Shown piece after piece: positions 1 through 48,417 of a stretch of DNA of 64,000 nt. Position 1 is the first letter of the stretch. Each line of letters begins with the position of its first letter. The DNA comes from Minisyncoccota bacterium (GTDB lineage: Bacteria > Patescibacteriota > Minisyncoccia > Phycocordibacterales > DATDSR01), in NCBI GenBank assembly GCA_036517655.1, contig DATDVE010000013.1, positions 28,364 to 92,363 on the forward strand, read 5' to 3'. The notes beneath the pieces were generated by a model. It ran no database searches and was not told where the DNA came from. It saw only the letters and a list, made by a program, of their open reading frames with translations. The position numbers and the translations under genes are program-made.

Positions 1-443
1 TTACTAGTAACCGCGACAATACTACTTCAGTAGCTAACGATTTGCGCAAGCAATTCGGTCCGCACTATATTGCCGAGAGTCTCTACGGGCGGGCAAGGGC
101 AGATGGAGTAGATGCGGTGATCGAGTCTCTGCGCGCTCCGGCTGAGGTAGAATACTTGCGCAAGAAGGGCTTCTTCGAATTATGGGCAATTGACGCTCTC
201 CCACGGCGCCGTTATGTGTGGGTGAGCAAGAGGGGGAGCGCACTTGATAATATCTCATACGAGAAGTTCCTGGCTGACGAAGATCGCGAGATGCACTCGA
301 ATGACCCGACCAAACAAAATTTGTCGGCGTGCATTGCGCTTGCAAATGTTGTCTTTCGTAATGACAGCACTAAGGAAGGCCTCTGGCAGAAAGTAGACAA
401 AGAACTAGACAGAATCCGCAATTCGGTATATAATTCAGACTAG
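1..443 (+). CDS. Nucleotide/nucleoside kinase-like protein (P-loop kinase fold), 5' truncated by window edge
   Basis: Frame is open to position 1 and no P-loop lies within the window, so the N-terminus is missing. C-terminal region resembles dNMP/dephospho-CoA kinase-like proteins. GC-elevated. Confidence 0.3.
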   Translation, partial: TSNRDNTTSVANDLRKQFGPHYIAESLYGRARADGVDAVIESLRAPAEVEYLRKKGFFELWAIDALPRRRYVWVSKRGSALDNISYEKFLADEDREMHSNDPTKQNLSACIALANVVFRNDSTKEGLWQKVDKELDRIRNSVYNSD

Positions 444-3350: not shown

Positions 3351-4285
3351 TGACAAACAAGCGAAGGACGAAACTTAGAATCGCTGTTTTATCCGGCGGA
3401 CCCGGAAGTGAGAGGGAGGTAAGTCTAGATTCTGGAAGGAATGTAGTTAGAGCGCTGGAAACTGGAGAAAACAAGTCTAGGTATATAGTAATACCTCTTA
3501 AGTTTCGCGATCCTCGATTACTTATGTCCAGACTCCAGCGCATCCAGCCTCATGTTGTTTTTCCAGTGTTGCACGGCGAGTTTGGCGAAGATGGCAAAGT
3601 TCAGGCTCTTCTGGAAGTATTCGGCAAGCCATATATCGGCTCGAGAGTGCTTGCCTCGGCGCTTGCGATGGATAAAGTGATTTCATCCAAACTTTTGCAC
3701 GCCGAGGGCGTGCGCGTTCCTAAGGAAATCACCCCGCGAAGCCAAGTAAATTTATTTGGCGGAGTGGGGTCATGTATTGTGAAGCCAAGGAACGGAGGCT
3801 CGAGCGTGGGGGTCTCGATAGTAAGAAATAAAAAAGACTTACAAAAAGCTATTAAGTTAGCCGAAAGAGAGGGCGAACCACTGGTTCAGGAATATCTATC
3901 GGGCAGAGAGTTCACTTGCGGGGTGCTCGAATTTGCGAAGGGCAAACCCAGCGCCCTGCCTGTGACAGAGATTATCCCCAAGAGTAAGTTCTTCGACTAC
4001 AAAGCCAAGTACATGAAGGGCGGTAGCGAAGAGATTACGCCGGCCGGTATATCGAGAAAGTTAACGGAAGAAATTCAACAGAGAGCTTTGCTTGCTCATA
4101 AAGTTTTGGCTTGCCGACATATATCTCGATCAGATTTTATATATTCGCGAGGCAAGCTCTATTATCTCGAGACCAACACCATGCCCGGCATGACGAGCAC
4201 GTCACTCATCCCGCAAGCCGTAAGAGCAGCCAAAATGACGATGCCCGAATTCTGCGATCGCTTAGTCCAAGCTACTCTTCAGTAA
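3350..4285 (+). CDS. ddl: D-alanine--D-alanine ligase (ATP-grasp)
   Basis: IAVLSGGPGSEREVSLDSG N-terminus plus ATP-grasp motifs. Start is probably the GTG at 3350 immediately after the upstream stop; the ORF-track start at 3287 overlaps the previous gene. Confidence 0.8.
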   Translation: MTNKRRTKLRIAVLSGGPGSEREVSLDSGRNVVRALETGENKSRYIVIPLKFRDPRLLMSRLQRIQPHVVFPVLHGEFGEDGKVQALLEVFGKPYIGSRVLASALAMDKVISSKLLHAEGVRVPKEITPRSQVNLFGGVGSCIVKPRNGGSSVGVSIVRNKKDLQKAIKLAEREGEPLVQEYLSGREFTCGVLEFAKGKPSALPVTEIIPKSKFFDYKAKYMKGGSEEITPAGISRKLTEEIQQRALLAHKVLACRHISRSDFIYSRGKLYYLETNTMPGMTSTSLIPQAVRAAKMTMPEFCDRLVQATLQ

Positions 4286-4341
4286 CTCACCCTACCCTCT
4301 CTTATAGATAAGAGAGGGCGAGACAGAGTCCGGGTGAGTTA
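4283..4341. mobile_element. MITE-like palindromic element copy 1
   Basis: TIR TAACTCACCC (4283-4292) / GGGTGAGTTA (4332-4341). Internal 24-bp palindrome CCCTCTCTTATAGATAAGAGAGGG. Its first TAA is the ddl stop codon. Confidence 0.8.
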
Positions 4342-13026: not shown

Positions 13027-13857
13027 ATGAAACTTGTCGCCTATATTCCTGTCTTGCACAAAGGCTATCTTGATCTATTCTCCCGGCACAAAGATTGCCG
13101 CGAACTTGCCATAATCGGCGAAGAAATTTTAGCCGACTTTGATCACGTAATTCGCAAAGACATCCGTCGCATTCCATCTGAACAAATGAAGCAAGCAATT
13201 GAAGCACTAGAACTATTTGATAAAGTAGAAATTCTCGACAAAAAGTTTGCAACTTCACTTGGCGCCCAGGGCGCCAAGTTAGTGATGTCAGATGATGAGA
13301 TTACTCGCACGCTTGCCAGTAGTGAGCTTAAGAAATGCGAGATAGAGTGGGACAAGGCATTCTTGCGTTGGCATCGCGACAACACGCTCGAAGAGCAAGC
13401 TACTGATCCAGACGAAACTGTCTCTCTCAAAGAAGTAGATCGGGAGCTTATGGGTAAAGCGAGAGAGAAGGGAAGTGAGAGTCTCGATTGGTATCGGCAG
13501 GTGGGGGCTTTGCTTGTGCGTGATGGGGAAATTCTGCTTAGTGCCGTAAACACTCATATGCCAAGTCCCACACAGGCTTATCAAGTCGGTGATCCAAGGA
13601 GTGTGTATAAGCGCAATTTGAATATAGAAATTTCGAGCGCTATGCACTCGGAGGCGGCAATAATTTCTGAAGCAGCCAGGCGGGGGATCAAAACAGAAGG
13701 CTGCTCTGTCTACGTCACAGATTTCCCCTGCCCGCCATGTGCCAAAGTATTATCGCACTCCGGTATAAAAAAATTATACTACGCCGGAGGCTACGCGGTC
13801 TTAGATGGGGGAATAGTCTTGAAAGATGCGGGGATCAAACTAATCAGAGTTAAATAG
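13027..13857 (+). CDS. dCMP/cytidine deaminase with ~145-aa N-terminal extension (degenerate nucleotidyltransferase-like)
   Basis: C-terminal HSEAAIISEAARRG...PCPPCAKVL zinc-binding deaminase motif. N-terminus AYIPVLHKGYLDLF resembles an HxGH motif. Confidence 0.75.
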   Translation: MKLVAYIPVLHKGYLDLFSRHKDCRELAIIGEEILADFDHVIRKDIRRIPSEQMKQAIEALELFDKVEILDKKFATSLGAQGAKLVMSDDEITRTLASSELKKCEIEWDKAFLRWHRDNTLEEQATDPDETVSLKEVDRELMGKAREKGSESLDWYRQVGALLVRDGEILLSAVNTHMPSPTQAYQVGDPRSVYKRNLNIEISSAMHSEAAIISEAARRGIKTEGCSVYVTDFPCPPCAKVLSHSGIKKLYYAGGYAVLDGGIVLKDAGIKLIRVK

Positions 13858-18188: not shown

Positions 18189-18205
18189 TAGAATATGAGG
18201 GCAAA

Positions 18206-18751
18206 ATGCAGAGTTCAAAAATCAAAATTTCAGTTCAAAAATCAAAATTTTTAATTTTGCCTTTTACTTTTGCCCTTTGCCTTTTGAACTTTAACTTGGC
18301 ATTCGCGGCTCCTTGGTCTCTTGACCTTGTGAGTGCCGTGGATGGCACTGATCAGACCATAACTGTTACTCCGGGCGCGACAGTCAATCTGCGCGGTATT
18401 ATCTACGGTACACCGGGTGGGCAAACCTTCTTTACTTTTAGCTGTGGCAGTACTGTTGTGAAGAAGGGAGAGGTTATGGGGAAGCTTATCAATGACTTAG
18501 CTTGCACGTTGCCCGTAGCAGGCGTGCTTAACCCGAAACTTTCAGTCACGAGAGAGAGCGACGAGCAAACGCTGACAGAAGCTATTACGATCAATTTCAC
18601 CTACGGCAATCCTGGGTCGGATGCTGCGAAGGGTAATGAGGCAGATAATACAGAGAGGGGACGACTTGCCTGGTACGTTGTGGGTATCTTGTTGACAACC
18701 CTGGCTGGAATCATTTATTACACAAGGCAAAGCAGAGGAAGTCAATATTGA
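18206..18751 (+). CDS. Secreted protein with C-terminal TM anchor
   Basis: Signal peptide encoded partly by tandem TCAAAAATCAAAATTT repeats. C-terminal hydrophobic helix plus basic tail. Confidence 0.5.
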   Translation: MQSSKIKISVQKSKFLILPFTFALCLLNFNLAFAAPWSLDLVSAVDGTDQTITVTPGATVNLRGIIYGTPGGQTFFTFSCGSTVVKKGEVMGKLINDLACTLPVAGVLNPKLSVTRESDEQTLTEAITINFTYGNPGSDAAKGNEADNTERGRLAWYVVGILLTTLAGIIYYTRQSRGSQY

Positions 18752-22122: not shown

Positions 22123-25100
22123 ATGACTGGCCCCACACCGGCTAATTTGCCAGAGAAGTCTGACGCTGCCAAGAGAGAAGAAGAAACTCTCAAGTTTTGG
22201 CAGGAAAACAAAATCTTCGAGAAGTCCCTCAAGTTAAGAGAGGGCAAAGAAGAGTTTGTCTTTTATGATGGCCCACCGTTTGCTACCGGCTTGCCCCACC
22301 ATGGCACATTACTTTCCTCTGTGGCTAAAGATGTTATTCCGCGATACAAAACAATGCGCGGGTTTTATGTACGCAGGCGCTGGGGCTGGGATACTCACGG
22401 TTTACCTATAGAGAATATGATCGAGAAGGATTTGGGGCTAAAGTCAAAAAAAGATATTTTGGCATTGGGGATTGAGCAGTTTAACGAAGCTTGCCGGGCT
22501 AAAGTTATGCAATACGCGCATGATTGGCAGAAATACGTTGATCGAGTTGGGCGCTGGGTTGAGTTTGAGAGCGCATACAAGACAATGGACGCAACGTACA
22601 CAGAGAGCGTGTGGTGGGCGCTCAAACAAATGCACGAGAAAGGCTTGCTATATGAGGGCAGGAAAGTGCTCATGTACTGTCCACATTGCGAGACGCCCCT
22701 GGCCAAAGCCGAGATTGCCATGGATAACTCATATAAAGATGTTACAGAAGAAGCCGTCACAGTGAAGTTTAGGTTGAAAATTGAAAATTGGAAATTGAAA
22801 ATTGCAGATACGCCCACGTATCTGCTGGCCTGGACTACCACGCCATGGACACTCCCTGCCAATGTGGCACTAGCTGTTGGGCCGGAGATCGAGTACTCGT
22901 TAGTAACTCACCCGGACTCCGTCTCGCCCTCTCTTATTAATAAGAGAGGGGTAGGGGTGAGTTATATTGTGGCTTCCGCATTAGTTGAGAAGCATTTTGG
23001 CAAAGATGCAAAAGTTGAGAAAACTTTTTTTGGCAAAGATTTAGAGGGGATAGAGTACGAGCCGCTCTTCCAGATTCCAGCTGTCCAGCAATCTGGTAAG
23101 CCAGCGTACTATGTTGCTCTGGCAGACTTTGTGAGTACAGAAGAAGGCACAGGCATTGTGCACACGGCTGTGATATATGGCGAGGACGACTACCAGCTAG
23201 GACTGAAAAATGATTTGCCCATGGTTCCCATATTAAATTCAAATGGCACTTACAATGATTTAGTGCCGGAGTTTTTGCAGGGGCAATACATCAAGAAAGC
23301 AGATAAGTTAGTGATAGAGGATCTCGAGAAGAGGGGTTTACTTTTCTCCAAAGCGCCAAACACGCATAGTTATCCGCATTGTTATCGTTGTGGCACGGCG
23401 CTCATATATAACGCGCTCTCCAGTTGGTTTGTCAACATTCAGAAGATCAAAGCGCGCATGATTGAGCTCAATGAGAAGATAAACTGGGTGCCAGAGCACC
23501 TGAAGCACGGCAGATTCTTGAACATTGTCGAGAACGCCCCCGATTGGACAATCTCGCGTAACAGATTCTGGGCAAGTCCATTGCCGATCTGGAAATGTAG
23601 TGAATGCGATTTAGTTAAAGTTGTGGGATCCCTCTCGGATTTGGAAGATAACCGCTCCACCAAACCGAATAAGTACATTTTGGTTCGTCATGGTCAGAGC
23701 GAAAAGAATAGTGGCAACGGAGAGCAGGGGGTCATCGCCACTACTCGCGAGGGTGATAGGTACCACTTAACAGAAGAAGGTCGAGAGCAGAGCAGGAAAA
23801 TTGCCTCTGAACTCAAATCACAAAACATTGACCTAATTGTGACCTCGCCTTATCTGCGCACTAAGGAGACGGCAGAGGCAATAGGAAGCCTTCTGGGCGT
23901 GAAGGTAGAAGAGGACGAAAGATTGAAGGAACTCCAGCTGGGTCAGACGCTCGAGGGCAAGACATGGGATGCTTTCAGAGAATTCGAGGGGAAGCGCGGT
24001 TTCGATGATCACTTAGGAGAGGGAGAGAGTTGTCGCGAGATGTTGGAACGTATGAGAGCCGTTGTTGTTGACCTAGATAAGAAGTACCAAGGGAAAAGCA
24101 TTGTTCTTGTGAGCCATGGTGATCCACTTTGGCTTCTGCGTTCTTATCTTATGAATCTCTCTCCTCAAGAAACACTCAAGCAGCATGATTCTCTGTATCC
24201 TAAGCGGGGGGAATTTTATGTTTTATCTCACAGCAATTACCCAAGGAACAAAAACATGGAGCTTGATTTTCACCGGCCCTACATTGATGCGATTAAGCTT
24301 GCTTGTTCATGTGGGGGCGAAATGGTGCGCATACCGGAGGTGGTTGATTGCTGGGTGGAATCTGGCTCGATGCCCTTCGCCGAGTATCATTACCCCACAG
24401 AAAACAAAAAAGAATTTGAAGGCCGATTTCCGGGAGACTACATAGCCGAGTACATTTCCCAGACCAGGACTTGGTTCTATTACATGCTCGCTGTTTCGAC
24501 AGCACTCTTTGATCGCGAGCCATTCAAGAATGTTGTAACAACTGGCAACTTACTTGCAGCGGATGGAGCCAAGATAAGTAAGTCTAAAGGCAACTATACG
24601 GACCCGCTTCTTCTGATTGATAAATATGGAGCAGATGCATATCGCTACTACGAAATGGTATCTGTTGTTATGCAGGGGGAAGATGCGCTCTTCAAAGACG
24701 ACGAGGTGAAAGAAGTGTATCAGCGCATGATAAACATTCTCTGGAATGTTGTTCAATTTTATACGACGTATAAAATTGAAGGGCAAAGTGCAAAGGTCAA
24801 AAATCAAAATTACACTTCAAAATTTGAAAATGTGCTGGATCGGTGGATACTCGCAAGATTGGCAGAACTCAATCGTGATGTGACAGAGAATCTAGATAAA
24901 TTTGATACAGTCAAAGCCGGTCGGCCAATCAGGGACTTTGTCACGGATCTATCAACCTGGTATATTCGCCGGTCGCGCGATCGCTTTAAATCAGATAATG
25001 CGCAAGATAGAGACAGTGCTATTGGGACGACTAGATTTGTGCTGCTGGAGCTCTCTAAACTAATAGCGCCGTTTATGCCATTCCTTGCCGAACAAGTATA

Positions 25101-25605
25101 CAAAGCCGTAGGTGGTGAACTCGAGTCAGTCCATCTGGAGAACTGGACTGAAATAAAGTCCGAGCCAGAGCATTCTGATGTTCTTGAGAACACCAGAATA
25201 ACGCGCGACATAGTGTCGCTAGCGCTCGAGGCACGCCAGAAGGAGGGGATCAAAGTGCGCCAGCCGCTTGCAAGTTTACAAACTAGCGCAAAGCTTGCTC
25301 CAGAATATCTGGAGTTGATAAAAGACGAGGTGAATGTCAAAGAAGTAAAGTTTGGCCCAGAGCTCCTTCTCGACACAAACATAACGCCTGAACTCGAACT
25401 CGAAGGCAAGATGCGCGATCTAGTAAGATCTGTGCAAGAGAAGCGCAAGGACTTGGGTCTCCAGCCCACTGATCAGGTCAATCTCACTCTCCCAACTTCA
25501 CTTGGGGATCTGATCCCTAAGTTTGAAAGCGAAATCAAAAAATCTGTGCATGCACAAAATGTGTCATTAGCAGACACACAAGAAATAAAGATAGAAAAAG
25601 TATGA
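22123..25605 (+). CDS. ileS: Isoleucine--tRNA ligase with in-frame MITE insertion and inserted histidine-phosphatase domain
   Basis: PFATGLPHHGT (HIGH), WTTTPWTLPAN, KISKSKGN (KMSKS). 1160 aa. MITE at 22904-22964. PGAM-like domain (LVRHGQSEKN, TSPYLRTKETAEAI, LVSHGDP) at about 23632-24255, between the CxxC and CxC zinc-finger halves. Confidence 0.9.
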   Translation: MTGPTPANLPEKSDAAKREEETLKFWQENKIFEKSLKLREGKEEFVFYDGPPFATGLPHHGTLLSSVAKDVIPRYKTMRGFYVRRRWGWDTHGLPIENMIEKDLGLKSKKDILALGIEQFNEACRAKVMQYAHDWQKYVDRVGRWVEFESAYKTMDATYTESVWWALKQMHEKGLLYEGRKVLMYCPHCETPLAKAEIAMDNSYKDVTEEAVTVKFRLKIENWKLKIADTPTYLLAWTTTPWTLPANVALAVGPEIEYSLVTHPDSVSPSLINKRGVGVSYIVASALVEKHFGKDAKVEKTFFGKDLEGIEYEPLFQIPAVQQSGKPAYYVALADFVSTEEGTGIVHTAVIYGEDDYQLGLKNDLPMVPILNSNGTYNDLVPEFLQGQYIKKADKLVIEDLEKRGLLFSKAPNTHSYPHCYRCGTALIYNALSSWFVNIQKIKARMIELNEKINWVPEHLKHGRFLNIVENAPDWTISRNRFWASPLPIWKCSECDLVKVVGSLSDLEDNRSTKPNKYILVRHGQSEKNSGNGEQGVIATTREGDRYHLTEEGREQSRKIASELKSQNIDLIVTSPYLRTKETAEAIGSLLGVKVEEDERLKELQLGQTLEGKTWDAFREFEGKRGFDDHLGEGESCREMLERMRAVVVDLDKKYQGKSIVLVSHGDPLWLLRSYLMNLSPQETLKQHDSLYPKRGEFYVLSHSNYPRNKNMELDFHRPYIDAIKLACSCGGEMVRIPEVVDCWVESGSMPFAEYHYPTENKKEFEGRFPGDYIAEYISQTRTWFYYMLAVSTALFDREPFKNVVTTGNLLAADGAKISKSKGNYTDPLLLIDKYGADAYRYYEMVSVVMQGEDALFKDDEVKEVYQRMINILWNVVQFYTTYKIEGQSAKVKNQNYTSKFENVLDRWILARLAELNRDVTENLDKFDTVKAGRPIRDFVTDLSTWYIRRSRDRFKSDNAQDRDSAIGTTRFVLLELSKLIAPFMPFLAEQVYKAVGGELESVHLENWTEIKSEPEHSDVLENTRITRDIVSLALEARQKEGIKVRQPLASLQTSAKLAPEYLELIKDEVNVKEVKFGPELLLDTNITPELELEGKMRDLVRSVQEKRKDLGLQPTDQVNLTLPTSLGDLIPKFESEIKKSVHAQNVSLADTQEIKIEKV
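22904..22964. mobile_element. MITE-like palindromic element copy 2, in frame within ileS
   Basis: TAACTCACCC...GGGGTGAGTTA with internal CCCTCTCTTATTAATAAGAGAGGG. Translated as VTHPDSVSPSLINKRGVGVSY inside IleRS. Confidence 0.8.
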
Positions 25606-30848: not shown

Positions 30849-32269
30849 TGTCCGATAAGTTCTACATCACAACTACTACGCCATATGTAAACGGCGACCC
30901 GCATATTGGGTTCGCGCGTGAGATTGTTGTAGCAGACGCTATCGCTCGCTTCAGGAAAATTATGGGCGACGAAGTGCGCTTCAACACTGGCACTGACGAG
31001 CACGGACAGAAAATATTTGAGAAGGCTCGAGAAGAAGGTCTAGAGCCCAGAGATTATGTAGATAAACTTGCGCCCAGATTCGCGGCGCTCAAGAGTCCGC
31101 TTGATCTCTCGTTTACTGATTTCTCGCGCACATCAAGTGAGCAACACAAGGTGGCTGCACAGGAGATGTGGAAGCGGTGCAATAAGAACGGTTATATCTA
31201 TAAAGGCAAGCACAAAATTAAATATTGCATAGGCTGTGAGCTAGAGAAGACAGATTCAGAACTTGACAGTGACAAGTGCCCAATTCATCCCAATCGCGAA
31301 TTAGAAAAAAGAGAAGAAGAAAACTACTTTTTCAAGTTTTCTAAACTTGCTCCCAAATTGCTTGAGCTGTACAAAGATAATCCAGAATTTGTGAGGCCAG
31401 ATTTCAGGATGACAGAGATCAGAACTTTCGTAGAGCGAGGCTTGCAAGATTTCTCTATCTCGCGACTTAAGTCAAAAATGAGTTGGGGAGTGCCAGTGCC
31501 CGACGATCCAGAACATGTTATGTACGTATGGTTCGACGCCCTCGTAATATATATTTCTCCCTTGGGTTGGCCAGAAGATGAGAATATGGGTGGCTGGTGG
31601 CCCGGCATGCAAGTCTGTGGCAAGGACAATCTTCGCCAGCAGACGGCCATGTGGCAAGCTATGCTCATAGCAGCCGGACTACCTGCTTCAACCCAGGTGC
31701 TTGTTTTTGGTTTTATAACTGGCGATGGGGGTATCAAAATGAGTAAGAGCTTGGGTAATGTTGTTGATCCCGTGGCTTTGGTAAATGATTGGGGGACAGA
31801 TGCTGTTCGCTATTTCCTGTTGCGCGAGCTTAGTTTGTGGGAAGATAGCCCGTTTACGCCCGAGCGCTTCAAAGAAGCATATAACGCTAACCTGGCAAAC
31901 GGCCTGGGGAATCTTGCGTCGAGAATTATGAAAATGGCGGAGGTAAATCTAGATACGCCGGTTAAAATTCCCGATAACTCTCTACCAGACGATTATAAAA
32001 AGTTAATGGACGAGTTTGGATTGCAGAAGGCAGCTGATTATATCTGGACTGAAATTGGCAGACTAGACACTCTCATCCAATCAAGTGAGCCATTCAAGTT
32101 AGTTAAGAGCGACCCAGAGAAGGGAAAAGAATTAATTCAAGAGTTGGTGGTGGACCTCTATACAATTGCCAGCATGTTAAACCCGTTCATACCAGAAACA
32201 GCGCAAGCGATCAAAGACGCAGTGAAGGGAAACAAGAGTTTTACTAAGCCACTTTTCCCTCGTAAATAA
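30848..32269 (+). CDS. metG: Methionine--tRNA ligase (short form)
   Basis: PYVNGDPHIGFA (HIGH region) and KMSKSLGN. The stop TAA is the first 3 nt of the composite element. Confidence 0.9.
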   Translation: MSDKFYITTTTPYVNGDPHIGFAREIVVADAIARFRKIMGDEVRFNTGTDEHGQKIFEKAREEGLEPRDYVDKLAPRFAALKSPLDLSFTDFSRTSSEQHKVAAQEMWKRCNKNGYIYKGKHKIKYCIGCELEKTDSELDSDKCPIHPNRELEKREEENYFFKFSKLAPKLLELYKDNPEFVRPDFRMTEIRTFVERGLQDFSISRLKSKMSWGVPVPDDPEHVMYVWFDALVIYISPLGWPEDENMGGWWPGMQVCGKDNLRQQTAMWQAMLIAAGLPASTQVLVFGFITGDGGIKMSKSLGNVVDPVALVNDWGTDAVRYFLLRELSLWEDSPFTPERFKEAYNANLANGLGNLASRIMKMAEVNLDTPVKIPDNSLPDDYKKLMDEFGLQKAADYIWTEIGRLDTLIQSSEPFKLVKSDPEKGKELIQELVVDLYTIASMLNPFIPETAQAIKDAVKGNKSFTKPLFPRK

Positions 32270-32716
32270 CTCACCCGGACTAAAGTCTCGACCTCTCTTA
32301 TAAACAAGAGAGGTAAAAAACAGAATCGTGAACAAATTTTTGGCGAACAATAAAATTCTGAAGAACCGCAGAAGGGAATTGCGCAGGAATCAGACTGAGG
32401 CCGAAAAGATTATGTGGGCATACCTTAGGGGTAAACAAATTGGGGTCCGTTTCTTGCGTCAATACAGTCTGGGTCCTTACATTATTGACTTCTATTGTCC
32501 TAGGATCAAACTTGCTGTAGAGTTAGATGGTCCCGTCCACGATTTACCAGTAAGTCAGGAGTATGATAGAGAAAGAGGATTATATTTAGGTAGTCTAGGG
32601 GTGAGGACAGTTAGGTTTAAGAATGCCACAGTAATGAATAATCCAACTAAAATTACAAATAAACTTAAACCTCTCTTATCTATAAGAGAGGTCGAGGCTT
32701 AGGCCCGGGTGAGTTA
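32267..32716. mobile_element. Composite TA-flanked element carrying a DUF559 endonuclease gene (probable full-length relative of the MITEs)
   Basis: Left end: TAACTCACCC+GGACTAAAGTCTCG+hairpin ACCTCTCTTATAAACAAGAGAGGT. Right end: hairpin ACCTCTCTTATCTATAAGAGAGGT+CGAGGCTTAGGCC+CGGGTGAGTTA. Ends are about 85% identical to the MITE ends. Confidence 0.75.
32328..32702 (+). CDS. DUF559 (Vsr-like PD-(D/E)xK) endonuclease-domain protein
   Basis: RRELRRNQTEAEKIMWAYLR...FLRQYSLGPYIIDFYCP..LAVELDG.VH...D.R...L...G..RF matches the DUF559 consensus. The C-terminal 10 aa are encoded by the right-end hairpin. Confidence 0.75.
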   Translation: MNKFLANNKILKNRRRELRRNQTEAEKIMWAYLRGKQIGVRFLRQYSLGPYIIDFYCPRIKLAVELDGPVHDLPVSQEYDRERGLYLGSLGVRTVRFKNATVMNNPTKITNKLKPLLSIREVEA

Positions 32717-33477
32717 TGATCATCGACGTACATAGTCACTTAAACGACGAGCAGTTTGAGTCTGATCTGCCCGAAACTGTGGCCCGCATGAAGGGGGCGG
32801 GGGTGTCTACTATTGTGGTAGGCACTGATCTTGCCACCTCACGCAGAGCCCTCGATGTGGCTAAGATGTACGGCCTATGGGCGACTATCGGCCAGCATCC
32901 AACGGATAACGTGGAAGAGAACTTCGACGAGGCGGCTTATGCTGAACTTGCTAAAAATAAGGAAGTGGTTGCCATCGGTGAGTGTGGACTCGACTTTTTC
33001 CTAGACAAGAGTGATGAGGGGCATGCAAGACAAGAGAAACTTTTTCATCTTCATCTTGAACTTTCTGCCAAAACAGGTAAGCCCTTAATGATTCACTCAC
33101 GAGGCGCGTACGAAAAAATATCCGTTAATCTGGCCACCAACATTCGCTTGCTCCCGTCCACCCCCGGCAATGTGCACTTTTTCACCGGTTCGTGGGTAGA
33201 TGCAAAAAGATTACTGGACCTTGGATTCACAATTTCATTCCCTGGAGTTATTACTTTTACCAGTGATTATGACGAAGTCATAAAGAATGTGCCTAAGGAT
33301 ATGTTCATGGTTGAGACAGATTCTCCCTTTGCTGCTCCGGTGCCCTATAGAGGTAAGCGCAACGAACCGGCCTATGTGGTGGAAATTGTTAAAAAGATCG
33401 CCGAATTGCGTGGCATGAGCCCAGAGAAAGTAGCCGAGCTAAGTTTGGCTACTGCCAAACGCGTATTTGCCTTGTAG
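32716..33477 (+). CDS. tatD: TatD-family metal-dependent DNase/hydrolase
   Basis: MIIDVHSHLN start, GECGLD motif. 253 aa. Confidence 0.85.
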   Translation: MIIDVHSHLNDEQFESDLPETVARMKGAGVSTIVVGTDLATSRRALDVAKMYGLWATIGQHPTDNVEENFDEAAYAELAKNKEVVAIGECGLDFFLDKSDEGHARQEKLFHLHLELSAKTGKPLMIHSRGAYEKISVNLATNIRLLPSTPGNVHFFTGSWVDAKRLLDLGFTISFPGVITFTSDYDEVIKNVPKDMFMVETDSPFAAPVPYRGKRNEPAYVVEIVKKIAELRGMSPEKVAELSLATAKRVFAL

Positions 33478-34527: not shown

Positions 34528-34725
34528 ATGCAATGCTATTTCTGTACAAATAACGCTACCCACATAGATTACAAGGACCTGGAGACTCTCAAGAAGTTTC
34601 TAGATCAATACGCGCGAATCTCTCGCAAGCGCACAACCGGAGTCTGTTCCCTCCACCAGAGGAAACTAGCCCGAGCAATCAAACACGCCCGCTTCATGGC
34701 ACTCCTACCATTTGTGGCATCATAA
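34528..34725 (+). CDS. rpsR: 30S ribosomal protein S18
   Basis: CYFCTNN...IDYKD...ISRKRTTGV...QRKLARAIKHARFMALLPF. Confidence 0.88.
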   Translation: MQCYFCTNNATHIDYKDLETLKKFLDQYARISRKRTTGVCSLHQRKLARAIKHARFMALLPFVAS

Positions 34726-34781
34726 CTCACCCAACCCTCTCTCATAGATAAGAGAGGGCGAGACGGAGTCCGGGTGAGTTA
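34723..34781. mobile_element. MITE-like palindromic element copy 4 between convergent rpsR and efp
   Basis: TAACTCACCC (34723-34732), CCCTCTCTCATAGATAAGAGAGGG, GGGTGAGTTA (34772-34781). Its TAA is the rpsR stop and its TTA is the efp stop on the minus strand. Confidence 0.8.
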
Positions 34782-42324: not shown

Positions 42325-45300
42325 ATGAAATCATACCTCCAAAGTGGAGTTGTAAGATTCGCAAGTGTTGCGGTAGGCGTAGCTATGCTTCTTAGCGTGG
42401 CGACACCAGTTGCAGCCCAGACGCAGTCACAGATTGATGCGCTCTTGGCTCAGATCGCTGCACTTCAGGCTCAACTTCTAGCCTTGCAGGCTGGTAGCTC
42501 GACCTCGATGTCTTGCAACTTCACAGTTAACCTTAAGTTGGGCATGTCCCATGCTGAGGTTAGAACACTTCAACAGTTCTTGAACACGCATGGTGCTCAA
42601 GTCGCTGCTTCGGGCGCAGGATCGCCTGGTAACGAGACTATGTACTTCGGTGCGCTTACACGCGCTGCAGTCATCAACTGGCAGAATGCAAATGCCGCTT
42701 CAGTCTTGACTCCAGCTGGTCTTACCGCCGGAACAGGATTCTGGGGGGCCTTCTCCAGAGCACATGCCAACAGCCAGTGCACAGTAGCTGGTCCTGGCCC
42801 GGTCACACCTCCTACAACAGGTGGTATGGCAACGGTCACCGCCGCCGCTCAACCAGCTAACGGGCTCGCTGTACAAGGCGCGGCTCGTATCCCATTCACC
42901 AAGTTCACAGTTACAGCAGGAGCTTCTGCGGTCACCATCAACTCGGTTGAAGTGGAGCGCACCGGCCTTGCTGATGACGATGCTTTCTCCGACGTTGTTC
43001 TACTTGACAGTAATGGCATGCAGATTGGCATCGGCAGGACGCTCAACAGTAATCACCGCGCAACTATCGGTGAAGCCGTGACAGTACCTGCTGGTACTTC
43101 CATGACCTTCACTGTGGCTGCCAACACGGCTGCTGACAACGGTACCAACGCGGGTCAGGTGGCCTCGTTCTCTGTGGTTGGTCTTAACACCAACGGTACA
43201 GTGGCAGGTTCCTTCCCGATCACTGGCGCTTCTCACACCATCAACGCCTCACTTGTGATTGGCAGTGTAACAATCAACACGAGTGGCTTGGTCAACACGG
43301 CCGCCACGATTGATATTGGCGAAGCTGATATCATTCACTCCGGTGTTCGCCTTACGGCGGGTTCGTCTGAGAACCTTCGCCTCTGGTCAATTCGTTGGAA
43401 CAACGCCGGTTCTGCTGCACCTTCGGATCTTGGCAATGTAGTTGTCAAGGTTGACGGCACAAGCTACCCGACGACTGTTTCTTCGGATGGTAAGTACTAC
43501 ACAGCAACCTTCGGTAACGGTATCGTAGTCGCCAAGGGTAACACCGTGGAGATTACGATTAGCGCTGTAGCCCTCGGTGGTCCTAATCGCACCATCAAGT
43601 TCGACCTTTATCGTCGTACTGATGTGGCCTTCACGGGCGAGCTCTTCGGTTACGGCATCACGCCTCCAGCCGGTTCCGGCACGGCGGCTGCTACGACCCA
43701 GGAATTCACTTCCGGTACGCCTTGGTACGACGGTATAACTAAGACCATCAACGCCGGTACCATCACGACTGTTTCGAAGTCCAACTCCGTTCCTGCCCAG
43801 AACATTGCCGAGAACCTCTCGGATCAACCCTTGGGCGGCTTCGAGATTGACGTAAAGGGTGAGGCAATCACTGTTCAGTCGTCCATCTTCCACTTCGCAA
43901 TCAGCGGATCTGGAGGTGACGTGGCTGACATTGACAACATCACTCTTACCAACCTCACCACTGGTCTCATTGTGGCCGGTCCCAAGGATGCCACGGCTGG
44001 GGCAACCAACGCGGTGACCTTCACGGACTCGATCACTTACCCGACAGGCAAGAGCACTTACGTGCTTAAGGGCAAGCTCGGGACTGATTTCACCTCTGAT
44101 CAGACGGTCATTGCTTCCACCACCCCAGACACTGACAACGACTGGACAACCGTCACGGGTCAGATCACTGGCAACTCTATTACCCTGTCGAACACTATCG
44201 TGACCATGAACACCATGACGGTGAAGGTCGCGACTGCTACGATCAGCGTGAATAGCTTGCCTGCAGCCCAGAACGTTGTAGTTGGTACAACTGGCTTCAC
44301 ATTCGCCAAGTTCAACGTAGACGCTACAGCTTCTGGTGAGGATATCCGCCTCAACAGCTTCGAGATCACGGCTGACACACCAACGGAAGTTACTGCCGAC
44401 AGCCTTCCAGTGAACTGCTTCGCTTATAGTTCAGCCGGTACACGCCTGAATTCAAGCGCGGTCAATCCTACGGAGGCCGAACAGAGCTTCACTCTGGCCA
44501 CAGCCCTCGTTGTTAAGAAGGGGACAATTGAGGCCATCGAGATCAAATGCGATGTGCCTTCTAACCTGACCTCTGACAACTCGTTCCGCTGGACACTCAC
44601 AGCAGGTACTAATGCTTGGAGTGGTACTGGCGCAACCTCGGGTCAGACTGTAACCTTCGGCTTCAATACAGCCAACGGCAACACCATGACCTTCAAGGGT
44701 GCTGGTACGTTCACAGTCATCAAGGATTCTTCGAGCCCGTCGTACATCATTATGGCGGCTAATCAGAGCAACGCGATCAACGGTGTTCTTCGCTTCTCTG
44801 GTTCAAACGAGGAGGTCACACTCAAGAAAGTAGCCTTGCAACTTACCAACACGGCTTCGTCCACGAACGCCACCGTCACTGGTGTCTCGCTCTGGGATGG
44901 TGCAACTAAGGTAGGTTCGGGTCTCTTCACTGGTTCCGCTACCACAACCCAAATCACACTTGACCAGACTGTCACTATTCCTAAGGATGGCGACAAGAAG
45001 TTAACCGTCAAGTTCGATATTGCGGCCATTGGTACTGGTCAATCCGGTGTCCAGGGCGCCTTGGTCGCTGTTGACTACGATGCCAACGGTCAAGCTGGGA
45101 CCACGGAGGGCACTGGCGCTCAATCGGGCACCACAGTCCTCTCAAGCAGCACAAGCACCTCGGCTGATACAGCCTTCGACGGTGTACGTGTCTTCAAGGG
45201 TTATCCAACCTTCGCCAAGGTGTCGATGTCGCCTATCTTGAGCAACGGTTCTGACAAACCACTGATGCGCTACTCGATTACCGCCAACGGCAACGATGTC

Positions 45301-45807
45301 GGTATCGCCAAGTTCACAGTGCGCTTTGCCACTACTACCGCTACAGTTTCGGCCTCAAGCGTTAACATTCACTGCTTCACCAACTCGTCATTCACCTCTG
45401 CTTGCAGCGGTCTCTCCGCTGACGGCCAGGTGGATGATACAGACAAGACGTCGCAGGGTGTTAACCTCGCCGAGATCTACGCGGAGAATAGTGCTGGCAC
45501 TGCTTCGGCTTTGCAGATCCCAGTCGGTCAGACCTACTACTTCGAAGTTCGCGGTACTGTGTCCGGCGCAGCTGCTGGTACATCTATAGCGACCTACGTA
45601 GAGGGTGATGCCGCCTATCCGCTCTTCACCACCGATATTCTGATGGCTTCGTCCACAGGTATCGACAACGATCAGGGTGGTAACGACGACTTCATCTGGT
45701 CACCAAACGCGGCTACTACTTCGGCTCTGTACGCCGAAGACTGGACGAACGGTTACCAGGTGGTCGGCCTGCCTTCTGGTGGTATCTCTGACTCTCTCTC
45801 ACTCTAA
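42325..45807 (+). CDS. Giant secreted surface protein (coiled-coil, peptidoglycan-binding-like domain, Thr/Ser/Gly-rich beta repeats)
   Basis: Signal peptide. QIDALLAQIAALQAQLLALQA coiled coil. CNFTVNLKLGMSHAEVRTLQQFLN...PAGLTAGTGFWGAF domain paralogous to 2289-3350. Then about 1000 aa of T/S/G/A/V-rich repeats. Confidence 0.7.
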   Translation: MKSYLQSGVVRFASVAVGVAMLLSVATPVAAQTQSQIDALLAQIAALQAQLLALQAGSSTSMSCNFTVNLKLGMSHAEVRTLQQFLNTHGAQVAASGAGSPGNETMYFGALTRAAVINWQNANAASVLTPAGLTAGTGFWGAFSRAHANSQCTVAGPGPVTPPTTGGMATVTAAAQPANGLAVQGAARIPFTKFTVTAGASAVTINSVEVERTGLADDDAFSDVVLLDSNGMQIGIGRTLNSNHRATIGEAVTVPAGTSMTFTVAANTAADNGTNAGQVASFSVVGLNTNGTVAGSFPITGASHTINASLVIGSVTINTSGLVNTAATIDIGEADIIHSGVRLTAGSSENLRLWSIRWNNAGSAAPSDLGNVVVKVDGTSYPTTVSSDGKYYTATFGNGIVVAKGNTVEITISAVALGGPNRTIKFDLYRRTDVAFTGELFGYGITPPAGSGTAAATTQEFTSGTPWYDGITKTINAGTITTVSKSNSVPAQNIAENLSDQPLGGFEIDVKGEAITVQSSIFHFAISGSGGDVADIDNITLTNLTTGLIVAGPKDATAGATNAVTFTDSITYPTGKSTYVLKGKLGTDFTSDQTVIASTTPDTDNDWTTVTGQITGNSITLSNTIVTMNTMTVKVATATISVNSLPAAQNVVVGTTGFTFAKFNVDATASGEDIRLNSFEITADTPTEVTADSLPVNCFAYSSAGTRLNSSAVNPTEAEQSFTLATALVVKKGTIEAIEIKCDVPSNLTSDNSFRWTLTAGTNAWSGTGATSGQTVTFGFNTANGNTMTFKGAGTFTVIKDSSSPSYIIMAANQSNAINGVLRFSGSNEEVTLKKVALQLTNTASSTNATVTGVSLWDGATKVGSGLFTGSATTTQITLDQTVTIPKDGDKKLTVKFDIAAIGTGQSGVQGALVAVDYDANGQAGTTEGTGAQSGTTVLSSSTSTSADTAFDGVRVFKGYPTFAKVSMSPILSNGSDKPLMRYSITANGNDVGIAKFTVRFATTTATVSASSVNIHCFTNSSFTSACSGLSADGQVDDTDKTSQGVNLAEIYAENSAGTASALQIPVGQTYYFEVRGTVSGAAAGTSIATYVEGDAAYPLFTTDILMASSTGIDNDQGGNDDFIWSPNAATTSALYAEDWTNGYQVVGLPSGGISDSLSL

Positions 45808-46443: not shown

Positions 46444-47688
46444 ATGATTTACAAGAAACGCATTCTAGTACTCGGTGGCGGTTATGGCGGCACTTACACC
46501 TTCAAACATCTCCACAAAAGTTTTAAGAATAATTCAGGTGTTGAGCTACGTTTAATTAGCAAGACTAATTATTTTGTCTCCACGCCCTTCTTGCACGAAG
46601 TGGCCACGGGCAACATTGACCCCGAGCATGTGGCCGAACCTCTGCGCAAGATTTTCCCCGGACCGGAAGAATTCCAGCTTGCCGATGTTAAAGCTATTTC
46701 GTTAAAAGATAAAAAAGTAGAAACAAATGAAGGAGTAATAGCTTACGATTATCTTATTATGGCTTTGGGCGCTGAGACTAATTATAGGAACACGCCAGGT
46801 GCGCGCGAACACACGCTTGCCCTCAAAACACTCGAAGATGCTATCAAACTCAAGAACCATTTTATCTCAACGTTTGATCAAGCTGCTAATCTGCATAACG
46901 AGGAAGAAATAAGAAAGAAATTGCGTTTTGTAGTGATTGGGGGCGGGGCAACGGGAGTAGAACTTGTTTCCGAAATGTCTGATTTCCTATACTCTTCGCT
47001 GGGGACGTATTACACCAAAAATTTCATAGCACATATTTCTATTATTTTAGTGCATGCAGGGGACGACCTACTTCCCAACTTTAGCCACAATATCAGGCTT
47101 GCCAGCAAAAAAGTATTGCGCAAAAAGAAAATAGAAATCAAATTCGGTCTGCAAGTGATCGAAGTGCGCCCCGGAGCTTTGGTGTTAAATAACGGCGAAG
47201 TGATAGAATCAGACACAATTATTTGGGCCGCTGGCGTAAGTCCCTCCAGTGTGTCAGTTACCCCGAGCGTAGAAAGAGAGAGGGGCAGAATAATTGTGAA
47301 TCAATTTTTCCAGATCCCATCTTATCCAGAGGTGTTTGTGCTCGGCGACCAGGCGGCTTTTAGGAATGTTGGTGATAGCGCGGCTCTACCCATGCTCGCT
47401 CAAGTGGCACACAAACAAGCTGACGCAGTGGCTCGCAATGTAGCGAGAATAGTAGAAGGCAAATTACCCATGCCATATACCTACAAGCACTTGGGCGACT
47501 TAGTAAGCTTGGGTGAGTGGGTGGCGGCGGGCGAACTATTTGGCATCAAGATATTTGGCCACGTGGCTTGGTTCTTCTGGCGCGGAGTCTACCTCTCTAA
47601 ACTCCTGTCTCCCACAAAAAAAGTGAAGGTTCTCCTAGATTGGCTCCTAAATCTTTTCGCCCCTCGCGACATCTCCGCCATCAACTAA
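46444..47688 (+). CDS. ndh: Type II NADH dehydrogenase (NDH-2)/FAD-dependent pyridine nucleotide-disulfide oxidoreductase
   Basis: Two Rossmann GxGxxG motifs (ILVLGGGYGG; VVIGGGATGVE). 414 aa. Confidence 0.75.
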   Translation: MIYKKRILVLGGGYGGTYTFKHLHKSFKNNSGVELRLISKTNYFVSTPFLHEVATGNIDPEHVAEPLRKIFPGPEEFQLADVKAISLKDKKVETNEGVIAYDYLIMALGAETNYRNTPGAREHTLALKTLEDAIKLKNHFISTFDQAANLHNEEEIRKKLRFVVIGGGATGVELVSEMSDFLYSSLGTYYTKNFIAHISIILVHAGDDLLPNFSHNIRLASKKVLRKKKIEIKFGLQVIEVRPGALVLNNGEVIESDTIIWAAGVSPSSVSVTPSVERERGRIIVNQFFQIPSYPEVFVLGDQAAFRNVGDSAALPMLAQVAHKQADAVARNVARIVEGKLPMPYTYKHLGDLVSLGEWVAAGELFGIKIFGHVAWFFWRGVYLSKLLSPTKKVKVLLDWLLNLFAPRDISAIN

Positions 47689-48417
47689 CTTGGAGGCCTT
47701 GCCTCCAAGTTATAAGGGTGATGATTAGATGTCTCCAATAGCAAAACTATCTAATTTTTTTGATTTTTTTACTTCTAACATGAGTTGCAAAGAATCTAAA
47801 GCAAATTTCCTGTAGTCATTCGTGTTCTTAAACTGGTCAAGTATGATTTTTTTCTCACAAATAGACAAGGTACTTTCTTTCATATATTCGTCCCAACTAC
47901 TTCGCACCAACTTAGAGGCCTTGCCTCCAAGTTGGTGAACTTCTGGGTTCAGGTTCACATAAGCACTACAGTGCAGCAGGTCGTCATTGCTGAGTATTCG
48001 TCTTGCTTTAAATTTTCCTTGGTACAAAGACCCAGATCGTTTATATCTATTATTTATGTAATAGGCAAAACCTCCAGATAGTCTTCCAAGGAACATACTG
48101 ATACCGTTTTCCACTAGTTGTTTCAATATCAGATGGAAATGATTCGGATTTAAGCAATACGCGACTATTTCCACGAGTTTTTTCTTGGGTCGTTTTTTAT
48201 CAGGTTTAGCAAAAGACTGTTCATAAATGCTACCTATTGGCTCAACAACGTTAAAAAGTATTAGGCTTTCCACAAACCGATTTGAATCTAAAGGATCTCG
48301 AGTGATATCGCACCCTTCAGCCCCGCGATTACAAATGTGGTAGTACTCATCGTGAGCGAAGGGCTCCTTTCGTGATGACATTGGTTTAATCTAACACTTG
48401 GAGGCAAGGCCTCCAAG
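47689..48417. mobile_element. IS200/IS605-like or REPtron-like element: Y1 (HUH) transposase flanked by inverted REP hairpins
   Basis: Hairpins CTTGGAGGC-CTT-GCCTCCAAG (47689-47709) and CTTGGAGGC-AAG-GCCTCCAAG (48397-48417) in opposite orientation. A third copy (47911-47931) lies inside the transposase ORF. Confidence 0.65.
47725..48381 (-). CDS. Y1 HUH transposase (IS200/IS605 TnpA or RAYT)
   Basis: YYHICNRG (~YHV.NRG), NPNHFHLIL (HUH motif), SLYQGKF (catalytic Tyr region). Confidence 0.7.
   Translation of the reverse strand: MSSRKEPFAHDEYYHICNRGAEGCDITRDPLDSNRFVESLILFNVVEPIGSIYEQSFAKPDKKRPKKKLVEIVAYCLNPNHFHLILKQLVENGISMFLGRLSGGFAYYINNRYKRSGSLYQGKFKARRILSNDDLLHCSAYVNLNPEVHQLGGKASKLVRSSWDEYMKESTLSICEKKIILDQFKNTNDYRKFALDSLQLMLEVKKSKKLDSFAIGDI

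What the first reader, a model, noticed from the sequence alone, without database searches (positions are those of the whole stretch)
22904..22964. MITE copy inserted in frame inside the essential isoleucyl-tRNA synthetase gene
The element at 22904-22964 sits in the ileS reading frame. It is translated as VTHPDSVSPSLINKRGVGVSY right after the conserved AVGPEIEYSLV segment, at the entry to the CP1 editing domain, a surface region. The ORF stays open for 1160 aa. This parallels Rickettsia palindromic elements that add peptide segments to proteins, but with an unrelated element.
Basis: partly seen in the sequence, partly recalled or inferred. Interest (0 to 1): 0.75.

Follow-up and report, generated by a model that had tools for sequence, protein, structure and literature searches.

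The report
Palindromic repeat translated inside isoleucyl-tRNA synthetase
A 61-base palindromic repeat of an uncultured groundwater bacterium (Paceibacterota) sits in frame inside its only isoleucyl-tRNA synthetase gene, has stayed at the same codon in at least eight related lineages in either orientation, and is far better conserved than the gene around it.

Summary
Window 22904-22964 is one of five units of a dispersed palindromic repeat: three full units of 59-61 nt and two half units. It lies in frame in a 1160-aa ileS ORF and adds about 20 residues inside the CP1 editing domain. More distant orthologues lack it.

New findings:
- The insert is old. Eight IleRS of one 100%-bootstrap clade carry it at the same GTA|...|TAT position, in both orientations. 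Lengths are 61, 58 or 49 nt, always in frame. Four clade members lack it, and one may keep a remnant.
- Four-fold sites of these ileS genes are saturated (33-42% identity), yet the embedded unit is 81-93% identical.
- Elsewhere the family hugs stop codons: its terminal TAA is often the gene's stop. It is also in frame in GH15-like and TatD genes.
- Inverted half units bracket a DUF559 (Vsr-like) endonuclease gene in three independent contigs. This is a candidate autonomous parent.
- The RAYT-like gene in the window belongs to a different palindrome.

Best reading: an ancient, vertically inherited, translated insertion that works like Rickettsia palindromic elements but is unrelated to them. 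Why the sequence is so conserved, and how the family moves, remain open.

The parts
22904..22964 (+). Full palindromic unit (61 nt) in frame in ileS; encodes residues 262-281, THPDSVSPSLINKRGVGVSY
   Evidence: CM score 83.7 bits. Folds at -31.5 kcal/mol, z = -5.0.
22123..25605 (+). Host gene ileS (1160 aa), the only ileS in the window. It also carries a lineage-wide His_Phos_1 domain at aa 519-684.
   Evidence: Pfam. PDB 1ILE, E 2.5e-139. An identical protein, P0001, is annotated in a Paceibacterota MAG. The other 1160-aa ORF is not an aaRS.
4283..4341 (-). Full unit (59 nt) between ddl and a pfkB-family kinase gene. Its terminal TAA (4283-4285) is the ddl stop codon.
   Evidence: CM score 88.4 bits.
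34723..34781 (-). Full unit (59 nt). Its terminal TAA on the minus strand (34781-34779) is the efp stop codon.
   Evidence: CM score 85.6 bits.
32267..32314 (+). Left half unit (outer arm + small hairpin + main hairpin), the left terminal inverted repeat of the DUF559 composite. Its TAA (32267-32269) is the metG stop codon.
   Evidence: (I3: 49 nt, 88% complementary to the right arm).
32328..32702 (+). DUF559 (Vsr-like PD-(D/E)XK) endonuclease ORF, 124 aa. Its last codons lie in the right half unit.
   Evidence: Pfam PF04480, E 2.9e-28. PDB 3HRL, E 6e-14.
32669..32717 (-). Right half unit, the right terminal inverted repeat of the DUF559 composite. The tatD ATG (32716) starts on its last base.

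Best explanation
The segment is a copy of a short palindromic repeat family (MITE/REP-like) of Paceibacterota. It entered ileS once, in an ancestor of a group of related species, at a length-variable beta-hairpin of the CP1 editing domain. It has been inherited vertically ever since as translated sequence.

Because the unit is almost a perfect palindrome, its asymmetric interior can be flipped in place without changing length or frame. Flipping could occur by recombination or template switching between the 10-bp outer arms, or by conversion from an inverted donor copy. This explains why both orientations occur at one codon. Small indels are tolerated only when they sum to multiples of three, giving lengths of 61, 58 and 49 nt. 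Some lineages have lost the unit.

The peptide is a tolerated passenger, an extended hairpin with a floppy tip, not a new functional domain.

The nucleotide sequence stays close to the family consensus because of whatever keeps the whole family uniform across species. The most likely cause is recognition by a conserved trans-acting protein together with conversion from other copies. The best candidate protein is the DUF559 endonuclease, whose gene is bracketed by inverted half units.

Shown:
- Repeat identity and in-frame position.
- A shared site in both orientations.
- The conservation excess over the host gene.
- The TIR-DUF559-TIR composites.
- Use of the terminal TAA as a stop codon.

Inferred:
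- A single origin.
- In-place flipping.
- Translation of the insert.
- The cause of the conservation.
- The role of DUF559.
For: 1. Repeat family. There are five units in the window, and the scans of genome and metagenome contigs yielded 44 entries in a de-duplicated catalogue, nearly all true copies and all of those in Patescibacteria or groundwater contigs.
2. Insertion. Eight IleRS (P0001, P0003-P0008, P0038) have the insert, and all other listed relatives lack it. In the DNA the unit lies between the same GTA and TAT/TAC codons in all of them.
3. Orientation. The window and L003 have the small hairpin on the 5' side. L001, L002, L004 and L005 have it on the 3' side.
4. Common descent. The twelve proteins P0001-P0011 plus P0038 form a 100%-bootstrap clade. 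L006 and L079, which group together at 100%, share the same derived 49-nt form without the small hairpin. TA-to-TA lengths of the ileS copies are 61, 58 or 49 nt, all equal to 1 mod 3, whereas other copies are 59-62 nt. In the H51-bin105_1 MAG the ileS copy (L024) shares its arm and stem variants with the ileS copies of L002/L005 (arm) and L006/L079 (stem). The intergenic copies of its own MAG that were sampled do not have that combination.
5. Loss. L007 has an 18-nt stretch at the site that matches the unit 11/12; only 18 of 2000 shuffles score as well.
6. Tolerated site. In the AlphaFold model strands 257-264 and 278-284 flank a tip (267-276) with pLDDT below 50. The loop length varies among orthologues.
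7. Family-level constraint. 22 full copies from many contigs have 90% mean column identity, 96.6% of cells are paired, and there are few compensatory changes.
8. DUF559 link. TIR-DUF559-TIR is seen in the window, in L040 and in L076, where the arms are 98% complementary.
9. Mobility. The metG-tatD junction is occupied in the window and empty in L002, L003 and L005.
Against: - The tree inside the clade is unresolved (bootstraps 15-64%). The number of flips, gains and losses therefore cannot be counted, and independent insertions at one preferred site are not excluded.
- Units are 81-93% identical while four-fold sites are only 33-42% identical. A passive passenger would not show this. It needs an extra force (conversion, or direct selection) that I did not demonstrate.
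- In the 12-23 kb around ileS in six relatives no other copy was found, so the presence of donor copies in those genomes is unproven.
- There is no transcript or peptide evidence for translation.
- DUF559 is not a known transposase, and most half units have no DUF559 gene beside them.
Confidence: 0.6

Rival explanations
1. The hairpin has been taken over for a function at the DNA or RNA level inside ileS, and is kept there by purifying selection on its nucleotides rather than on the peptide. Possible functions are a strong mRNA structure that slows ribosomes between the first half of the catalytic fold and CP1, or a binding or processing site.
For: - The unit is 81-93% identical between genes whose synonymous sites are saturated.
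- The encoded peptide differs between orientations and between length variants through compensated frameshifts, while the palindrome persists.
- Stems show compensatory changes, for example CCCTCCCTTA/TAAGGGAGGG in L005, L006 and L079.
- The fold is strong, -28 to -33 kcal/mol, z = -5 to -6.7.
- No other copies were seen in the sampled flanks of six relatives.
Against: - Both orientations occur, so a strand-specific RNA motif in the asymmetric part is unlikely.
- Four clade members do without the unit, and one subclade has lost the small hairpin.
- Intergenic copies are just as conserved, so the constraint is not specific to ileS.
- No Rfam family matches.
Confidence: 0.2
2. The ileS site is a strongly preferred target, and the unit inserted there independently several times, in either orientation. 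Only in-frame events survived.
For: - Both orientations occur at one codon.
- Presence is patchy within the clade, including P0002 (empty) nested with P0005 and P0038.
- Copies are near-consensus, as expected for young insertions.
- The family is clearly site-selective elsewhere, since it abuts stop codons.
- A nuclease of a clade that includes homing endonucleases is associated with the family (PMC3424549).
Against: - All ileS copies have lengths equal to 1 mod 3, and L006 and L079 share a derived 49-nt deletion form.
- Arm and stem variants are shared between the ileS copies of different species.
- L007 may carry a decayed remnant.
- The empty sites (GTA GGG GGG AAC; GTT TTA GAT ...) do not share a recognisable target sequence.
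Confidence: 0.15
3. The segment is removed before the protein functions, as an intron-like or intein-like element, so it does not alter IleRS.
For: It is a compact, strongly structured insert in an essential gene, and CPR genomes are known for insertions in rRNA genes (my own knowledge, not tested here).
Against: - In all eight lineages the insert is a multiple of three and free of stop codons in the ileS frame despite indels and inversion. Only translated sequence needs this.
- 16-20 residues is far too short for an intein.
- No Rfam intron model matches.
- The same family is read in frame in other genes and supplies stop codons.
Confidence: 0.03

Closest known systems
Rickettsia palindromic elements (RPEs; Ogata et al. 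2000, as summarised in PMC10969869)
   Same: - Short palindromic repeats dispersed in a small genome.
- Repeatedly found in frame inside unrelated housekeeping genes and read through as extra peptide.
- Located at positions compatible with the protein fold.
- Shared between related species.
   Different: - Unrelated host phylum (Patescibacteria versus Alphaproteobacteria).
- 59-61 nt here, against about 100-150 bp for RPEs.
- Most copies here sit flush with stop codons rather than inside genes.
- Both orientations occur at one orthologous codon.
- The unit is much better conserved than the host gene.
- There is a candidate partner gene (DUF559).

I did not compare the sequence with RPE sequences directly.
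Bacterial MITEs with an autonomous parent (for example Correia or ERIC elements; review PMC10969869)
   Same: - Small, non-coding, with terminal inverted repeats and many copies.
- Presence/absence differences at orthologous sites.
- A longer version with the same ends carries a gene.
- Can create in-frame fusions and supply stop codons.
   Different: - The gene between the shared ends encodes a 124-aa DUF559/Vsr-like nuclease, not a DDE, serine or Y1 transposase.
- No target-site duplication can be demonstrated.
- The 'ends' are 46-49 nt structured modules, each containing a complete hairpin.
REP/BIME elements with RAYT (REP-associated tyrosine transposase)
   Same: - Short palindromes at gene ends.
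- Modular units in either orientation.
- A gene flanked by inverted copies, as in a REPtron.
   Different: - The RAYT-like Y1_Tnp gene of this genome (47725..48381) and of its relatives is flanked by a different palindrome, ACTTGG(A/C)GG...CC(T/G)CCAAGT.
- The conserved GTAG/CGTC tag of REPs is absent. The corresponding columns vary.
Free-standing Vsr-like/EDxHD homing endonucleases (I-Bth0305I family; PMC3239194, PMC3424549)
   Same: DUF559 is placed in the same PD-(D/E)XK clade. It is a small selfish-looking nuclease gene with a patchy distribution, and many homologues sit on very short contigs.
   Different: - Here the gene is not in an intron or intein. It lies between terminal inverted repeats that also exist as gene-less 59-nt derivatives.
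- No homing target has been identified.
- Catalytic activity is untested.

Membership tests
MITE (miniature inverted-repeat transposable element) | Short, non-coding unit with terminal inverted repeats | tested here: met
   Units are 59-62 nt with 10-bp outer arms TAACTCACCC/GGGTGAGTTA (94.5% of cells paired). They have no ORF of their own.
MITE (miniature inverted-repeat transposable element) | Multiple dispersed copies and presence/absence at orthologous sites | tested here: met
   There are five units in 64 kb and 44 entries in the de-duplicated catalogue from the scans. The metG-tatD junction is filled in the window and empty in L002, L003 and L005. The ileS site is empty in P0002 and P0009-P0011.
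MITE (miniature inverted-repeat transposable element) | Target-site duplication flanking the unit | tested here: inconclusive
   The terminal TA/TAA could be a duplication or part of the unit. Comparing filled and empty junctions does not decide between no duplication and a 1-nt or 2-nt duplication.
MITE (miniature inverted-repeat transposable element) | Autonomous relative with the same ends that encodes the mobilising enzyme | tested here: inconclusive
   TIR-DUF559-TIR composites occur three times (window, L040, L076). However, DUF559 is not a known transposase and its activity is untested.
Rickettsia palindromic elements (RPE) | Palindromic repeat inserted in frame in protein-coding genes | tested here: met
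   ileS, a GH15-like gene and TatD.
Rickettsia palindromic elements (RPE) | Belongs to one of the described RPE sequence families (about 100-150 bp, Rickettsia) | tested here: not met
   The length is 59-61 nt, and every true copy lies in Patescibacteria or groundwater contigs. Sequence was not compared with RPEs directly. The size and host figures for RPEs come from PMC10969869.
REP/RAYT system | RAYT (Y1 transposase) gene flanked by the same repeat | tested here: not met
   Y1_Tnp genes in the window, L001, L003 and L005 are flanked by a different palindrome.
REP/RAYT system | Conserved GTAG or CGTC tetranucleotide at the 5' end of the palindrome (PMC3733652) | tested here: not met
   GTAG occurs in the junction of some copies only. 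Columns 49-52 of alignment A2 are variable.
Intron or intein | Removed from the RNA or protein; splicing motifs or ribozyme structure | tested here: not met
   No Rfam match. The insert is 16-20 codons, always in frame and free of stops in 8 lineages. Removal itself cannot be tested with these tools.
DUF559 / Vsr-like PD-(D/E)XK nuclease (the partner gene) | Match to the family profile and to a solved member | tested here: met
   PF04480, E 2.9e-28, 98 bits against a cut-off of 20.6. PDB 3HRL, E 6e-14.

The most novel reading that the evidence does not exclude
Two linked claims.

1. The 46-49-nt structured inverted repeats plus the DUF559 (Vsr-like) endonuclease form a previously undescribed kind of autonomous mobile element in Patescibacteria. 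It would use a PD-(D/E)XK nuclease rather than a classical transposase, target stop codons, and spawn the 59-61-nt gene-less units.

2. The copy inside ileS is held near the consensus for tens of millions of generations by direct selection, or by nuclease-driven conversion, acting on DNA inside an essential gene. The protein sequence at that spot would then be a by-product of a nucleic-acid signal.
Probability: 0.25. Interest if true: 0.8.

Novelty: new variant of a known kind. Interest (0 to 1): 0.62.

Why it matters
Translated selfish repeats in housekeeping genes are textbook for Rickettsia but rare elsewhere. My literature searches found no description of them in CPR/Patescibacteria.

Three features make this case useful:
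- It is a natural experiment on what an aminoacyl-tRNA synthetase editing domain tolerates. The same codon carries different peptides in different species: two orientations, three lengths, and frameshifted middles.
- The embedded DNA is much better conserved than the essential gene that hosts it. That gives a direct way to ask what keeps short palindromic repeats uniform across species.
- The recurrent bracketing of a DUF559 nuclease gene by the same ends offers a testable candidate for the missing mobilising enzyme. It may also explain why DUF559 genes so often sit between inverted repeats (PMC9881135).

There is a practical consequence too. Gene callers and aligners will treat such segments as ordinary protein sequence in these very compact genomes.

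Tried and rejected
- **RAYT as the mobilising enzyme.** Rejected. The Y1_Tnp genes in the window and in the relatives are flanked by, and each contain, another palindrome.
- **Known RNA family.** No Rfam match at gathering threshold in the window.
- **A second ileS that would make this copy dispensable.** The other 1160-aa ORF (42325..45807) has only a peptidoglycan-binding domain.
- **Carriage on phages or plasmids.** No blastn match for the composite in the phage or plasmid collections. The single IMG/VR pattern hit is a chance match without arms or hairpin.
- **Integron attC-like site.** Considered because the ends read ...TAAC/GTTA... and the units follow stop codons. Not pursued: complementarity stops at the TAAC/GTTA ends in the copy I inspected (by eye only), the copies are not in arrays, and I did not look for an integrase.
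- **Covariation as proof of an RNA structure.** The helices hold, but the family varies too little. Only 3 pairs show double changes and 6-38 of 500 shuffles do as well, so this does not separate RNA, DNA-hairpin and protein-recognition models.
- **Target-site duplication.** Could not be resolved from filled versus empty junctions.
- **Technical failures.** Two element-finding regexes returned nothing because of my own pattern errors and were corrected.
Full report
**1. The observation**

Window 22904-22964 reads TAACTCACCCGGACTCCGTCTCGCCCTCTCTTATTAATAAGAGAGGGGTAGGGGTGAGTTA. It lies inside ORF 22123..25605 (1160 aa), where it is translated as (V)THPDSVSPSLINKRGVGVSY after ...AVGPEIEYSL.

The ORF is IleRS:
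- Pfam gives tRNA-synt_1 (E 5e-124) and Anticodon_1.
- The best solved relative is T. thermophilus IleRS 1ILE (E 2.5e-139).
- An identical protein is annotated in a Candidatus Paceibacterota MAG.

The segment is a repeat, not a chance palindrome:
- Its 24-nt core occurs three times in the window with up to 3 mismatches, against none in 100 shuffles.
- The repeat finder recovers units at 4283-4341, 32266-32314, 32669-32717 and 34723-34781.
- A covariance model built from 22 copies finds exactly three full and two half units in the window.

**2. Anatomy of the unit**

A full unit has three parts:
- a 10-bp outer stem, TAACTCACCC/GGGTGAGTTA;
- a small 3-bp hairpin (GAC NNN GTC) on one side only, which gives the unit an orientation;
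- an 11-bp main hairpin, CCCTCTCTTAT/ATAAGAGAGGG.

Predicted folding energies are -28 to -33 kcal/mol, with z-scores of -5 to -6.7. "Half" units have the outer arm, small hairpin and main hairpin but no closing arm.

**3. It is an insertion, and an old one**

Of the 120 best IleRS relatives, only eight carry a segment at this position: P0001, P0003-P0008 and P0038. The other members of the closest clade have 3-7 unrelated residues there.

I fetched the DNA of ten orthologues. In all element-bearing genes the unit lies between the same GTA (Val) and TAT/TAC (Tyr) codons.

- **Orientation differs.** The window and L003 have the small hairpin 5' of the main hairpin. L001, L002, L004 and L005 have it 3'. 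L006 and L079 carry a 49-nt form without it.
- **Length.** TA-to-TA lengths are 61, 58 or 49 nt, always equal to 1 mod 3. Other copies of the family are 59-62 nt.
- **The peptide is not conserved.** Between the window and L003, three separate 1-nt differences sum to 3 nt, so the middle of the peptide is frameshifted (SLINKRGVGVSY versus SLKIREGRVSY). The peptide itself is evidently not what is conserved.

In a neighbour-joining tree with the insert masked, P0001-P0011 plus P0038 form a clade with 100% bootstrap. Inside it, eight proteins have the unit and four lack it. Internal branches are poorly resolved. The exception is (P0002, P0005, P0038) at 100%: two members share the derived 49-nt form and one has nothing. 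That shared derived form argues for vertical inheritance followed by erosion.

L007 (P0009, "empty") has 18 nt between the same GTA and TAT codons that match the unit 11/12. Only 18 of 2000 shuffles score as well, so this may be a remnant.

**4. The unit is better conserved than its host**

For the 15 pairs among six ileS genes:

| Measure | Identity |
|---|---|
| Amino acids | 63-73% |
| Nucleotides | 63-70% |
| Four-fold degenerate sites | 33-42% (saturated) |
| The unit, orientation-normalised, gaps counted as mismatches | 81-93% |

The two short forms are 78-84% identical, against 70% for their genes.

The same uniformity holds for the whole family. 22 full copies from many contigs have 90% mean column identity. 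96.6% of cells are paired, against 37-62% when partners are slid. Only three pairs show double changes. So sequence is conserved, not merely the ability to pair. That pattern fits recognition by a conserved protein better than a generic hairpin.

**5. Where the family lives**

One pattern scan of GTDB species genomes gave 22 stretches. About 13 are true copies, all in Patescibacteria MAGs, and the rest lack the arms. My own rough estimate before the scan was about 9 chance hits. One scan of metagenome contigs gave 44 stretches, 39 of them true, from groundwater samples.

- **Stop codons.** In about half of the non-ileS copies the terminal TAA is the stop codon of an ORF of at least 60 aa, sometimes of convergent genes at both ends. 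In the window this holds for ddl, efp and metG.
- **Other translated copies.** Half units are read in frame in a GH15-like gene in two contigs (L018, L065), where the C-terminus after the unit is conserved. They are also read in frame in TatD in two contigs (L016, L072).
- **Not on known mobile replicons.** No copy was found in the phage, plasmid or viral-contig collections.

**6. What might move it**

The relatives and the window encode a RAYT-like Y1 transposase. Those genes are flanked by, and each contain, a different palindrome, ACTTGG(A/C)GG...CC(T/G)CCAAGT. That enzyme therefore belongs to another repeat family.

In the window, two inverted half units (49 nt, 88% complementary) bracket a 124-aa DUF559 ORF (PF04480, E 2.9e-28; PDB 3HRL, E 6e-14) whose last codons lie in the right arm. 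The same architecture recurs in two other contigs:
- In L040, with a degenerate left arm and an extra gene fragment.
- In L076, around the closest homologue of the protein (62% identity), with arms 98% complementary.

The composite fills the metG-tatD spacer exactly. Relatives have 1-15 nt or unrelated sequence there.

DUF559 homologues are widespread, and many lie on contigs shorter than 2 kb. The literature supports a selfish-nuclease reading. The DUF559/Vsr clade includes the homing endonuclease I-Bth0305I (PMC3424549, PMC3239194). DUF559 genes are enriched among genes bracketed by inverted repeats (PMC9881135).

This makes TIR-DUF559-TIR a candidate autonomous parent of the 59-61-nt units, but nothing here shows activity. 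Most half units have no DUF559 gene beside them, and no target-site duplication could be resolved.

**7. Position in the protein**

The insert starts 18 residues after the WTTTPWT motif, inside CP1; the isolated T. thermophilus CP1 domain 1WK8 aligns to query 203-419. 1ILE has a shorter loop at this point. Distant orthologues carry unrelated segments of various lengths there.

An AlphaFold model (40-sequence alignment, mean pLDDT 72) has strands at 257-264 and 278-284, with residues 267-276 below pLDDT 50. That is an extended hairpin with an undefined tip. The WTTTPWT motif is intact in the ORF, and reading the translation I also see HIGH-like (PHHG) and KMSKS-like (KISKS) motifs. The window holds no second ileS.

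**8. Interpretation**

The best reading (confidence 0.6) is a single ancient in-frame insertion of a MITE/REP-like palindromic unit into a tolerant loop. It was then inherited vertically, flipped in place, trimmed by indels that kept the frame, and lost in some lineages.

The conservation excess is the part that a passive-passenger model does not explain by itself. I attribute it to the force that keeps the whole family uniform, namely recognition by a trans-acting protein plus conversion from other copies, but I did not demonstrate this.

The rivals are:
- direct selection on the hairpin inside ileS (0.2);
- repeated insertion at a preferred site (0.15);
- removal of the segment before the protein functions (0.03). 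The strict maintenance of frame and the absence of stops in eight lineages argue strongly against this one.

**9. Comparison with what is known, and novelty**

Functionally this works like Rickettsia palindromic elements (PMC10969869), but it is not a member of that family. It differs in size and host phylum, and I did not compare sequences directly. It fails two defining features of REP/RAYT systems. It meets the structural and copy-number features of MITEs, while the duplication and transposase criteria remain open.

My literature searches found no description of translated repeats in Patescibacteria and none of DUF559-bracketing repeats as a mobile element.

I rate it a new variant of a known kind, with interest 0.62.

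Noticed in passing
window 23677-24174 (IleRS aa 519-684): A histidine-phosphatase domain (PF00300 His_Phos_1, E 2e-33) is inserted in the middle of the IleRS catalytic domain. All 120 listed relatives carry it, so it is a lineage-wide trait of these Parcubacteria IleRS. One literature search found no paper linking IleRS to a histidine phosphatase domain.
   Followed up: partly
window 47684-48419 (ORF 47725..48381, minus strand) and 13257-13283: A RAYT-like Y1 transposase gene (PF01797) is flanked by copies of a different palindrome, ACTTGGAGGCCTTGCCTCCAAGT, at 47684-47711 and 48392-48419. It also contains a third copy inside its own coding sequence (47906-47933). The same three-copy arrangement is seen around the orthologous genes in L001, L003 and L005. 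It looks like a REPtron with a conserved internal REP.
   Followed up: partly
window 24771-24829 (ileS aa 883-903) and 18189-18247: A second, unrelated repeat. A 59-nt A-rich segment inside ileS (translated YKIEGQSAKVKNQNYTSKFEN) is 80% identical to an intergenic segment at 18189-18247. It falls in a variable stretch that is a few residues longer in P0001, P0002, P0005 and P0007, and residues 889-899 have pLDDT below 50. This may be a second translated repeat in the same gene.
   Followed up: partly
window 22768-22805 (ileS aa 216-228): A simple tandem repeat, ttgaaaattgaaaattggaaattgaaaattg, is read in frame as LKIENWKLKI. It lies in a loop whose length and sequence vary among orthologues.
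   Followed up: no
L018 4458-4504, L065 (minus strand), L016 5636-5684, L072 3577-3625: Half units of the same family are read in frame in a GH15-like glycoside hydrolase (ITHPDFVSTSLITREV) and, in antisense orientation, in TatD DNase (TSLGVREVETSSPGEL). Each case occurs in two different contigs. I did not compare them with orthologues that lack the insert.
   Followed up: partly
L078 271-1300: Two tandem DUF559 genes (59% identical to the window's). Each ends in a related but distinct hairpin, CCTCCCCTTACTTAAGGGGAGG, and there is a further repeated hairpin, CCCCCTCTTAAGATAAGAGGGGG. This suggests that DUF559 genes travel with CCTCNCTTA...TAAGNGAGG-type hairpins more widely.
   Followed up: no
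L001 12953-13113 and L004 11990-12481: In two relatives the metG-tatD spacer is long (161 and 492 nt) and looks structured; the L001 spacer has a GC-rich stem followed by a T-run. No Rfam family matches, even at E <= 0.01.
   Followed up: partly
L010 around 81-160 (minus strand): A half unit directly abuts a sequence that looks like the 3' end of a tRNA gene (TGGAGCCGACTGTCGGACTTGAAC...). I did not run the tRNA finder on it.
   Followed up: no
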